From IMG/VR virus record IMGVR_UViG_2695420565_000020: a stretch of DNA of 12,644 nt; one strand, given 5' to 3'. Position 1 is the first letter of the stretch. Every line of letters starts with the position of its first letter. The notes beneath the pieces are model-generated. The model saw nothing but the letters and a program-made list of their open reading frames with translations. It was not told the DNA's origin and ran no database searches. Both the position numbers and the translations under genes were made by a program. The stretch is from a virus (Duplodnaviria > Heunggongvirae > Uroviricota > Caudoviricetes). Positions 9,507 to 9,990 of the stretch are shown in pieces.

Positions 9507-9788
9507 TCATCGCTCCTTAAAGACGCCGTTTAACATGCCGATCGCCAGACTTAAATGAGTCGGTGTGAATCCCATTAGCGTTACCGTTTCGCGGTGCTTC
9601 TTCAGTACGCTACGGCAAATGTCATCGACGTTTTTATCCGGAAACTGCTGTCTGGCTTTTTTGATTTCAGAATTAGCCTGACGGGCAATGCTGCGAAGGG
9701 CGTTTTCCTGCTGAGGTGTCATTGAACAAGTCCCATGTCGGCAAGCATAAGCACACAGAATATGAAGCCTGCTGCCAGAAAAATGCAT
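9507..9788 (-). CDS. Lambda orf61-region protein, intact longer form (93 aa from ATG 9788; alternative 71 aa from ATG 9722)
   Basis: ORF MHFSGSRLHILCAYACRHGTCSMTPQQENALRSIARQANSEIKKARQQFPDKNVDDICRSVLKKHRETVTLMGFTPTHLSLAIGMLNGVFKER; in-frame stop at 9840-9842 upstream. By recall, lambda orf61 is a shorter version of this frame. Confidence 0.6.
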   Translation of the reverse strand: MHFSGSRLHILCAYACRHGTCSMTPQQENALRSIARQANSEIKKARQQFPDKNVDDICRSVLKKHRETVTLMGFTPTHLSLAIGMLNGVFKER

Positions 9789-9798
9789 TCTGTTGTTG

Positions 9799-9990
9799 TC
9801 ATGCCGGGTCTCTCTCGTTTGCTTCTGCTTTCGCCGCCATCATTTCCAGCTTTTGTGAAAGGGATGTGGCTAACGTATGAAATTCTTCGTCTGTTTCTAC
9901 TGGTATTGGCACAAACCTGACTCCAATTTGAGCGAGGCTATGTGCCATCCCGATACTCGTTCTTAATTCAACAGGAGATGCTTTGTGCAT
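9799..9990 (-). CDS. Lambda orf63-like small protein (63 aa)
   Basis: ATG at 9990; [63 protein letters not shown]; length and position match lambda orf63. Confidence 0.7.
   Translation of the reverse strand: MHKASPVELRTSIGMAHSLAQIGVRFVPIPVETDEEFHTLATSLSQKLEMMAAKAEANERDPA

What the first reader, a model, noticed from the sequence alone, without database searches (positions are those of the whole stretch)
9507..9842. Intact long form of the lambda orf61-region gene plus an overlapping 27-codon hydrophobic micro-ORF coupled by ATGA overlaps
The frame open from 9839 encodes a 93-aa protein. By recall the lambda reference has one more T in the run at 9657-9662, truncating its orf61 to 61 aa, so this prophage may carry the ancestral intact gene. 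In another frame, a 27-codon ORF (9719-9802, MTTTECIFLAAGFIFCVLMLADMGLVQ) starts at an ATG overlapping the orf63 stop and ends at a TGA overlapping the ATG of MTPQQ... (9722). It looks like a single transmembrane helix and may be an unannotated peptide, with the downstream gene actually the 71-aa form.
Basis: partly seen in the sequence, partly recalled or inferred. Interest (0 to 1): 0.5.

Follow-up and report, generated by a model that had tools for sequence, protein, structure and literature searches.

The report
Conserved 27-codon membrane-peptide gene before orf61
Between orf63 and orf61 of lambda-like prophages lies a 27-codon gene for a greasy membrane-type peptide that evolves like a real protein gene; no phage or RefSeq record I opened annotates it, the true Orf61 is the 71-residue form, lambda's own copy is broken by one extra base, and published "orf61" mutants also cut into the little gene.

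Summary
The window is the exo-xis region of the Stx1 prophage VT1-Sakai. The A-run at 9657-9662 has 6 bases and lambda has 7. That truncation is already published, and among 250 related loci A7 is almost confined to lambda itself.

The real Orf61 is the 71-aa MTPQQ form. Relatives listed from Klebsiella, Yersinia and Enterobacter are 72-80 aa, nearly all 72-74, and the phage copies compared start at its residue 1. RefSeq already annotates this form. The 93-aa ORF is an artefact of an unconstrained frame (1 synonymous : 7 non-synonymous changes).

The 27-codon ORF (9719-9802) is the new part:
- Changes shared by at least 2 haplotypes are 11 synonymous : 2 non-synonymous (p=8.5e-6).
- It is intact in 113 of 114 haplotypes.
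- It is the most hydrophobic small ATG-ORF in the window.
- It sits as an exact 81-nt insert at an ancestral ATGA gene junction.
- The region around it is in 58% of complete E. coli genomes.

It appears only as a sporadic "hypothetical protein" in GenBank and UniProt, and I found no paper on it. Published lambda "orf61" frameshift and deletion mutants cut into it.

It is most likely a translationally coupled small membrane peptide. Translation and function remain untested.

The parts
9799..9990 (-). orf63 (DUF1382, 63 aa). Its TGA stop overlaps the micro-ORF ATG.
   Evidence: Pfam PF07131, E=2.6e-30; ORF list.
9719..9802 (-). 27-codon small ORF, MTTTECIFLAAGFIFCVLMLADMGLVQ: a predicted single hydrophobic helix and the newly supported gene.
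   Evidence: Changes shared by at least 2 haplotypes are 11 synonymous: 2 non-synonymous, p=8.5e-6, omega about 0.06. Intact in 113 of 114 haplotypes. Best 19-aa Kyte-Doolittle window is 2.33. Moderate SD, -5.1 kcal/mol.
9799..9802 (-). ATGA overlap 1: orf63 stop / micro-ORF start.
   Evidence: Sequence. The same ATGA is kept where a Dam-like methyltransferase replaces orf63 (L012).
9719..9722 (-). ATGA overlap 2: micro-ORF stop / orf61 start.
   Evidence: Sequence. In 31 of the fetched loci it is GTGA, which is CAA>CAG (synonymous) in the micro-ORF and ATG>GTG for orf61.
9507..9722 (-). orf61, true 71-aa form (MTPQQENALRS...KER): a three-helix protein of unknown function.
   Evidence: Distant phage homologues align from residue 1. 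The best 120 of 699 relatives are 72-80 aa outside E. coli. 16 synonymous: 9 non-synonymous changes. AlphaFold2 pLDDT 89.6 with three helices. RefSeq WP_000188870.1 is this form.
9723..9788 (-). 22-codon N-terminal extension of the 93-aa ORF (MHFSGSRLHILCAYACRHGTCS): not a real coding frame.
   Evidence: 1 synonymous: 7 non-synonymous changes, omega about 2.4. SD only -1.7 kcal/mol. PMC8614690 excluded residues 1-23 from its model statistics because its two models disagreed there.
9657..9662 (-). A6 homopolymer inside orf61 (codons K21-K22). Lambda has A7, which shifts the frame to ...KKSQTAVSG*.
   Evidence: Alignment. 228 A6 and 18 A7 among 250 loci. Alleles with compensating indels exist (P0021, P0025).
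9415..9510 (-). 31-codon ORF (29 codons from the ATG at 9504). Its ATG overlaps the orf61 TGA, giving a third ATGA.
   Evidence: ORF list. AAGGAG SD of -8.4 kcal/mol, best spaced for ATG 9504. Annotated in phage 21 and mEp332. No significant coding signature: 5 synonymous: 8 non-synonymous.
9468..9486 (-). Terminator-like hairpin followed by a T-run, inside the 31-codon ORF.
   Evidence: It lies where PMC4195576 predicts terminator t2, between orf61 and orf73.

Best explanation
This stretch of the leftward early (pL) operon is a string of translationally coupled short cistrons: orf63 -ATGA- 27-codon ORF -ATGA- orf61 (71 aa) -ATGA- 31-codon ORF.

The 27-codon ORF is a genuine gene. Ribosomes finishing orf63, or a Dam-like methyltransferase in other mosaics, restart at the overlapping ATG, helped by a moderate SD. 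They make a 27-residue, very hydrophobic peptide that most likely inserts into the inner membrane as a single helix. They stop at a TGA that overlaps the weak-SD start of orf61, so the little ORF also delivers ribosomes to orf61.

Orf61 proper is a 71-residue three-helix protein. The 93-aa ORF, and lambda's annotated 61-aa orf61, read through the micro-ORF in the wrong frame. Lambda carries a derived +1 A in the A6 run that cuts Orf61 to a 29-residue stub, while its 27-codon ORF is fully intact.

Shown here: the sequence architecture, the frame-specific purifying selection, the hydrophobicity, the 71-aa start and the lambda indel.

Inferred: translation, membrane insertion, coupling and any phenotype.
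For: Selection:
- Among changes shared by at least 2 haplotypes, the micro-ORF frame has 11 synonymous : 2 non-synonymous (p=8.5e-6). They fall 2/0/11 by codon position.
- With all changes counted it is 13:12 (p=2.7e-3).
- The orf61 core, as a positive control, gives 16:9. The 93-aa N-extension frame gives 1:7 and the third frame 2:10.
- The sampling anchors lay outside the micro-ORF.

Conservation:
- Intact in 113 of 114 haplotypes.
- The peptide is 100% identical in 138 of 176 phage records.
- The 141-nt region around it occurs in 3131 of 5426 complete E. coli genomes.

Gene-boundary behaviour:
- Where a Dam-like methyltransferase replaces orf63, the mosaic joint falls exactly at the micro-ORF ATG, with a GGGAGG SD.
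- In Enterobacter phage CobraSix and in Klebsiella phages, a methyltransferase is joined directly to orf61 by ATGA. The E. coli version is that junction plus an exact 81-nt insert flanked by ATGAC repeats.

Product and signals:
- GRAVY 1.62 and a best 19-aa window of 2.33.
- SD energies are -5.1 for the micro-ORF, -1.7 for the 93-aa start and -3.9 for the 71-aa start.
- No Rfam family and no unusual RNA fold (z=+0.98), so an RNA element does not explain the conservation.

The 71-aa start is supported, and the lambda indel.
Against: - There is no direct evidence of translation. The lambda ribosome-profiling paper (Liu et al. 2013) is not held. The 2021 review lists only a 7-aa and a 31-aa extra peptide from it for this region, not a 27-aa one.
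- Divergence is shallow: all copies are at least 92.6% identical at peptide level and confined to E. coli lambdoids. The selection test therefore rests on about 25 changes. Singleton changes are mostly non-synonymous, which could be errors or decaying prophages.
- The peptide has no basic residue (net charge -2), which is unusual for a membrane anchor.
- Natural variants lack or truncate the ORF while keeping orf61: PhiR5_1-type alleles (a 344-member protein cluster) and Escherichia sp. E1V33, where the joint leaves only 17 codons and puts an ATG in the orf61 frame. So it is dispensable for orf61.
- An antisense 61-codon ORF shares its third codon positions and shows a weaker signal of 8:4.
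Confidence: 0.72

Rival explanations
1. The micro-ORF is translated only as a relay that brings ribosomes from orf63 to the weak orf61 start. The peptide itself has no function.
For: ATGA overlaps at both ends. Weak SD at the 71-aa start. Ancestral junctions couple a methyltransferase directly to orf61 by ATGA. Some alleles do without it.
Against: A pure relay would tolerate amino-acid change, yet shared changes are 11 synonymous: 2 non-synonymous, and 138 of 176 phage records encode the identical peptide. In PhiR63_2 orf61 is a truncated pseudogene while the micro-ORF is intact. In lambda itself orf61 is broken and the micro-ORF is perfect.
Confidence: 0.14
2. The 93-aa ORF (start ATG 9788) is the real Orf61, as annotated in 933W, VT1-Sakai and several RefSeq phage records. 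On this view the 27-codon ORF is a chance overlapping frame.
For: Many records annotate it, PHROG 303 covers residues 1-93, and the frame is open with an ATG in all 114 haplotypes. In Escherichia sp. E1V33 an upstream gene is ATGA-coupled to an ATG in this frame.
Against: The extension shows 1 synonymous: 7 non-synonymous changes, with variation concentrated at its first codon positions. It has no SD. The homologues listed outside E. coli are 72-80 aa, nearly all 72-74, and the phage copies compared start at MTP. PhiR5_1-type alleles have another gene ending 8 nt before the 71-aa start. The ATG and the open frame are forced by the micro-ORF codons.
Confidence: 0.05
3. The constraint comes from the opposite strand, where a 61-codon ORF lies on the + strand at 9735-9920, or from a DNA or RNA element, and not from the 27-codon ORF.
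For: The antisense frame that shares third positions gives 8 synonymous: 4 non-synonymous (p=1.4e-3), and that ORF is intact in 98 of 114 haplotypes.
Against: The signal is weaker than in the sense frame and is the expected echo of a sense gene. That ORF breaks up where a methyltransferase replaces orf63, while the sense ORF stays intact. No promoter-like site was found for it. There is no Rfam hit and no RNA structure.
Confidence: 0.04
4. Lambda's A7 is not a defect but a programmed or phase-variable slippage site that still yields full-length Orf61.
For: After the AAA AAA Lys codons, a +1 slip in lambda would restore the 71-aa frame. The run is an indel hot spot, and natural alleles carry compensating frameshifts at the next A-run (P0021, P0025).
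Against: A7 is essentially confined to lambda and its copies: 17 of the 18 A7 loci are identical to lambda or differ by one base, against 228 A6 loci. I saw no stimulatory element. The compensated alleles argue for selection to repair the frame, not to keep two frames.
Confidence: 0.04

Closest known systems
Lambda orf61 / Phi24B vb_24B_7c / 933W L0070 (PHROG 303; RefSeq WP_000188870.1, often named 'cell division protein ZapA')
   Same: It is the same gene. The 71-aa core is 97-100% identical across the E. coli lambdoid phage records. Mutants give a pro-lytic phenotype (PMC6213356, PMC8614690).
Small bacterial and prophage inner-membrane proteins of fewer than 50 residues
   Same: Size, a single hydrophobic helix, omission by annotation pipelines, and a location in a prophage accessory region.
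   Different: There is no sequence similarity to any family. It has no flanking positive charges. No target, localisation or phenotype is known. The DicB paper (PMC6832061) surfaced only as a title and was not compared; the resemblance to this class is from my own knowledge.
Translationally coupled overlapping cistrons with AUGA junctions (from my own knowledge: trpB-trpA and many phage operons)
   Same: The stop and start share ATGA at three successive junctions here, and also at exo/orf60a. The downstream starts have weak SD sequences.
   Different: Here an entire 81-nt cistron has been slotted into a pre-existing ATGA junction, duplicating the ATGAC motif. Coupling itself was not measured.
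Extra peptides reported from lambda ribosome profiling in this region (orf2311 of 7 aa and orf2313 of 31 aa; Liu et al. 2013 as cited in PMC8614690)
   Same: They are short unannotated ORFs of the exo-xis block. The 31-aa one matches in length the ORF at 9415-9510, which is identical in lambda.
   Different: The 27-aa ORF is not among those the review cites. Unlike the 31-codon ORF, it shows clear purifying selection. I could not read the primary paper.

Membership tests
Orf61 family (PHROG 303 / lambda exo-xis orf61) | Significant full-length sequence match to the family | tested here: met
   phrog_303 E=1.5e-43. 699 relatives were found with a profile of the 71-aa form.
Orf61 family (PHROG 303 / lambda exo-xis orf61) | Protein of about 70-75 aa that starts at the conserved M-T-P...N-A motif | tested here: met
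   Alignments A2 and A3: M1, N7 and P28 are invariant in both, and T2 in A3. Relatives listed outside E. coli are 72-80 aa, nearly all 72-74.
ZapA (Pfam PF05164), the name NCBI gives this protein | Score at or above the Pfam gathering threshold | tested here: not met
   16.0 bits against a cut-off of 23.8, E=0.015, covering only 34 residues. No NCBIfam hit.
ZapA (Pfam PF05164), the name NCBI gives this protein | ZapA-like fold | tested here: not met
Homeodomain-like three-helix DNA-binding fold (proposed in PMC8614690) | Significant structural match to homeodomains | tested here: inconclusive
Small single-pass membrane proteins | Hydrophobic stretch long enough to span a bilayer | tested here: met
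   IFLAAGFIFCVLMLADMGL has a mean Kyte-Doolittle value of 2.33 over 19 residues. Whole-peptide GRAVY is 1.62, the highest of 47 comparable ORFs.
Small single-pass membrane proteins | The protein is made and resides in the membrane | not testable with these tools
   This needs tagged fusions, fractionation or ribosome profiling. The only support here is the coding-type substitution pattern.
Translationally coupled overlapping genes | Overlapping stop and start codons on the same strand | tested here: met
   ATGA at 9799-9802, 9719-9722 and 9507-9510.
Translationally coupled overlapping genes | Downstream translation depends on upstream translation | not testable with these tools
   The only indirect evidence is the weak SD at the 71-aa start (-3.9 kcal/mol).
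Type I toxin-antitoxin (small hydrophobic toxin plus antisense RNA) | Dedicated antisense RNA gene or promoter, and toxicity | tested here: inconclusive
   No promoter-like site on the + strand near 9700-9850 and no Rfam match. Toxicity was not tested. The ORF is embedded in an operon, not a stand-alone locus.
Programmed frameshift or slippage site (for the A-run) | The slippery run and both downstream frames are conserved across relatives | tested here: not met
   228 of 250 loci have A6 with a single open frame. A7 is confined to lambda-type copies apart from one degraded locus, L159.

The most novel reading that the evidence does not exclude
The phenotypes published for lambda 'orf61' (faster prophage induction, less lysogeny) are caused by the 27-residue membrane peptide and not by Orf61.

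Lambda's Orf61 is only a 29-residue stub. The lambda 'orf61 frameshift' mutation deletes a C in micro-ORF codon 18, and the lambda deletion removes micro-ORF codons 13-27.

The peptide would then be a new early-operon effector that acts at the inner membrane on the lysis-lysogeny decision. A target such as the FtsH/HflKC machinery that controls CII is pure speculation.
Probability: 0.2. Interest if true: 0.7.

Novelty: new member of a known kind. Interest (0 to 1): 0.45.

Why it matters
Phage lambda is one of the most closely studied genomes, and Stx phages matter medically. A conserved gene missing from their annotation is worth adding, and the region that holds it is in 58% of complete E. 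coli genomes.

There is also a practical consequence. The exo-xis literature has worked with mis-framed Orf61 constructs, 61 aa in lambda and 93 aa in Stx phages.

- The published lambda frameshift mutation (a C deleted from GTG CTT) lies in micro-ORF codon 18, upstream of the true orf61 start (PMC4195576).
- The lambda deletion arms remove micro-ORF codons 13-27 (PMC4699033).
- The Phi24B deletion removes the last 3 micro-ORF codons and its stop.

Genotype and phenotype are therefore confounded in these studies.

The insoluble aggregates reported on overexpression (PMC6213356) may come from the spurious cysteine-rich N-terminus. This is my inference. Using the 71-aa form and testing the peptide separately would make the function of this block directly testable.

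Tried and rejected
- Liu et al. 2013, the lambda ribosome-profiling paper, is not held under either identifier. Casjens and Hendrix 2015 is not held.
- A full-text search for the peptide sequence found nothing.
- The large protein search refuses queries under 40 aa. Structure prediction needs at least 30 aa, so the peptide could not be modelled.
- The genome-contig scan returned mostly lambda DNA contaminating unrelated assemblies and added little diversity.
- My first two-anchor DNA pattern had the wrong gap length and found nothing. The corrected pattern worked.
- Pfam, NCBIfam, PHROG and PADLOC gave nothing significant for the peptide.
- An RNA-element explanation was rejected: no Rfam hit and a fold z-score of +0.98.
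- The ZapA and homeodomain assignments for Orf61 were not reproduced.
- The Yersinia 31-codon hydrophobic ORF upstream of the orf61 homologue could not be tested for selection, because the two copies read are identical across that ORF.
- A paper with many 'Orf61' mentions (PMC9239242) concerns an unrelated Vibrio phage protein.

Full report
**What the window is**

The queried 501 bases (9400-9900) are 100% identical to the Stx1 prophage VT1-Sakai (Sp15) of E. coli O157:H7. On the minus strand the genes run exo, orf60a (DUF1317), orf63 (DUF1382), the region in question, then a TraR/DksA-type zinc-finger gene (orf73). This is the exo-xis block of the pL early-left operon. The lambda cIII thermoregulator lies upstream at 12213-12271.

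**Check of the observation**

- The 93-aa ORF is 9507-9788, in a frame open from 9839.
- The 27-codon ORF is 9719-9802 (MTTTECIFLAAGFIFCVLMLADMGLVQ).
- Its ATG overlaps the orf63 TGA, and its TGA overlaps the ATG of MTPQQ at 9722.
- The run at 9657-9662 is A6 on the coding strand.

Aligned with lambda NC_001416, the only indel in 460 nt is one extra A in lambda. Lambda's annotated orf61 (30839-31024) starts at an ATG inside orf63. It reads the micro-ORF region in the wrong frame, joins the true Orf61 frame at MTPQQ, and after the A7 run ends as ...KKSQTAVSG*.

**The homopolymer difference**

Among 250 related loci fetched from viral and genome collections, 228 have A6 and 18 have A7. Of the 18, 15 are identical to lambda over 660 nt, 2 differ by one base, and 1 (L159) is a degraded copy. 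Several of the identical ones are lambda DNA contaminating assemblies of unrelated bacteria.

The distant homologues listed are full length. So A6 with an intact gene is ancestral, and lambda's allele is a derived frameshift.

This is not new. A 2021 review already states that lambda Orf61 'appears to be truncated' compared with Phi24B and 933W (PMC8614690).

The run is an indel hot spot. Some E. coli alleles carry a shifted stretch between this run and the next A-run and then return to frame (P0021, P0025). That argues for selection to keep the C-terminal two thirds of Orf61.

**Which Orf61 is real**

The 71-aa form is the real one, for these reasons.

- tblastn hits in Klebsiella, Yersinia, Vibrio, Enterobacter and Erwinia phages align from residue 1 of MTPQQ, or residue 5 in one Vibrio phage.
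- In Klebsiella ST13-OXA48phi12.5 and Enterobacter CobraSix, the annotated homologue starts with an ATG that overlaps the stop of an upstream methyltransferase gene.
- A profile search found 699 relatives. The best 120 listed outside E. coli are 72-80 aa, nearly all 72-74.
- In E. coli phage PhiR5_1, a different 250-aa gene ends 8 nt before the orf61 start (MTIEHNN...). This allele type is a cluster of 344 member sequences.
- The start at 9788 has no Shine-Dalgarno sequence (-1.7 kcal/mol).
- The 22-codon extension shows 1 synonymous: 7 non-synonymous shared changes.

Current RefSeq (WP_000188870.1) and the phage 21, mEp332 and ev017 records already use the 71-aa form. They leave a 76-nt 'gap' after orf63. 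Other records keep the 93-aa form.

**The 27-codon ORF**

I collected 250 loci holding the orf61 core with enough flank. The anchors lay outside the micro-ORF: the Orf61 protein, or DNA in orf63 and orf61. After dropping three rearranged loci they reduce to 114 distinct 660-nt haplotypes.

Shared changes, meaning those present in at least 2 haplotypes, are as follows.

| Frame | Synonymous : non-synonymous | Note |
|---|---|---|
| Micro-ORF | 11 : 2 | expected synonymous fraction 0.244; p=8.5e-6; omega about 0.06; codon positions 2/0/11 |
| orf61 core (positive control) | 16 : 9 | |
| 93-aa N-extension | 1 : 7 | |
| Third sense frame | 2 : 10 | |
| Antisense frame sharing third positions | 8 : 4 | p=1.4e-3; the other two antisense frames are 2 : 10 each |

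Counting every change, the micro-ORF frame gives 13:12 (p=2.7e-3). The extra non-synonymous changes are singletons.

Further evidence:

- The ORF is intact in 113 of 114 haplotypes.
- tblastn finds it in 175 phage records, all E. coli lambdoids or prophage-derived, at 92.6% identity or more. 138 records are identical.
- The 141-nt region is in 3131 of 5426 complete E. coli genomes.
- In PhiR63_2, orf61 is a truncated pseudogene while the micro-ORF is intact. The same is true of lambda.

**Origin and architecture**

In a subset of E. coli prophages (L012 type), a Dam-like methyltransferase replaces orf63. The mosaic joint then falls exactly at the micro-ORF ATG: ...GGGAGGCTGC ATGA. In CobraSix, a methyltransferase of the same family ends ...GGGAGGCCGC ATGAC and runs straight into orf61.

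The E. coli arrangement equals that junction plus an exact 81-nt insert bounded by ATGAC repeats. The micro-ORF therefore behaves as a discrete cassette dropped into a pre-existing coupled junction, keeping ATGA on both sides.

A third ATGA joins orf61 to a 31-codon ORF, and exo/orf60a also share one. SD strengths are -5.1 for the micro-ORF and -3.9 for orf61-71, which fits reinitiation-assisted translation.

**Product**

GRAVY is 1.62, the highest of 47 ATG-ORFs of 20-40 aa in the window. The best 19-residue window scores 2.33. There are no basic residues and the net charge is -2.

No family match was found in Pfam, NCBIfam, PHROGs or PADLOC. There is no Rfam family and no unusual RNA fold.

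**What is already known about it**

The exact peptide exists as 'hypothetical protein' in a handful of GenBank E. coli assemblies and in UniRef (A0A0A2SGE8). The look-up found it on 981 contigs. None of the phage or RefSeq records I opened annotates it.

No paper in the library contains its sequence. The exo-xis review lists only a 7-aa and a 31-aa extra peptide from lambda ribosome profiling. I could not read that primary paper.

**Consequence for published work**

- The lambda 'orf61' frameshift plasmid deletes the C of GTG CTT. This is micro-ORF codon 18, and it lies upstream of the true orf61 start (PMC4195576 Table 1).
- The lambda delta-orf61 arms leave micro-ORF codons 1-12 and remove codons 13-27 together with the first 14 Orf61 codons (PMC4699033).
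- The Phi24B deletion starts after micro-ORF codon 24.
- The authors report insoluble aggregates on overexpression and cite ribosome density over 'orf61' as proof of expression (PMC6213356). Both are equally compatible with a mis-framed construct and with translation of the micro-ORF. This is my inference.

**Verdict**

The homopolymer and truncation part is already known, and the 71-aa start is already in RefSeq.

The 27-codon ORF is a well-supported and essentially undescribed small gene. It is most likely a translationally coupled small membrane peptide. Translation, localisation and function remain to be shown experimentally.

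Noticed in passing
window 9415-9510 (-): A 31-codon ORF (MNMKSKIIRELQAPFLLFAFTLKRINQQFRD) starts at an ATG overlapping the orf61 TGA. It has an AAGGAG SD ideally spaced for the second ATG at 9504 (29 aa), and it runs through the terminator-like hairpin at 9468-9486. It is identical in lambda and matches in length the 31-aa 'orf2313' the review cites from ribosome profiling. It shows no significant coding signature (5 synonymous : 8 non-synonymous).
   Followed up: partly
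L007 902-997 (Yersinia phage vB_YenM_210.17) and L274 (Y. enterocolitica chromosome): A 31-codon hydrophobic ORF (MKRKISDGAWFWIYLIGYTVAATLYIVSNAG, with a GGGAG SD) fills the 95-nt gap just upstream of the Yersinia orf61 homologue. It is unrelated in sequence to the E. coli peptide. In other Yersinia prophages a 102-aa ClpX-zinc-finger-like gene occupies that slot. The two copies read are identical across the ORF, so selection could not be tested.
   Followed up: partly
L092-L105 (genome-contig hits): Contigs 100% identical to lambda over the region compared, including the A7 allele, sit in assemblies labelled Shewanella, Bradyrhizobium, Pseudomonas, Paenibacillus, Kitasatospora and others. This is almost certainly lambda control or spike-in DNA contaminating those assemblies.
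   Followed up: no
window 9507-9722 (-); proteins P0007, P0010 and others: NCBI names many copies of Orf61 'cell division protein ZapA'. The Pfam ZapA score is below threshold, and the fold searches list no ZapA.
   Followed up: yes
proteins P0021 and P0025 (E. coli alleles of orf61): These alleles read in a shifted frame for a few codons after the A-run (KKSQTAVS.. or KKSDSSF..) and then return to the Orf61 frame at KNV. This implies paired compensating indels at two neighbouring A-runs.
   Followed up: no
L091 1135-1416 (Escherichia sp. E1V33): A recombination joint inside the micro-ORF leaves only 17 codons of it, from a GTG. It places an ATG, ATGA-coupled to a different upstream gene and preceded by GGAGG, in frame with orf61. 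This gives a 93-aa protein with a different extension.
   Followed up: partly
window 12213-12271 (-): A full-length match to the lambda cIII thermoregulator RNA (RF01804, 88.5 bits), which confirms the pL-operon context.
   Followed up: no
window 10142-10151 (-): The exo stop TGA (10144-10142) overlaps the second ATG of orf60a (10145), another ATGA junction. The start of orf60a is called differently in different records, giving 60 aa or 62 aa.
   Followed up: no
L149 and L276: These are degraded copies. In one, a rearrangement next to a partial Q antiterminator pseudogene cuts the micro-ORF to 9 codons. In the other, an IS66-family transposase gene lies directly upstream and the gene is called as a 100-aa ORF (P0003).
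   Followed up: no
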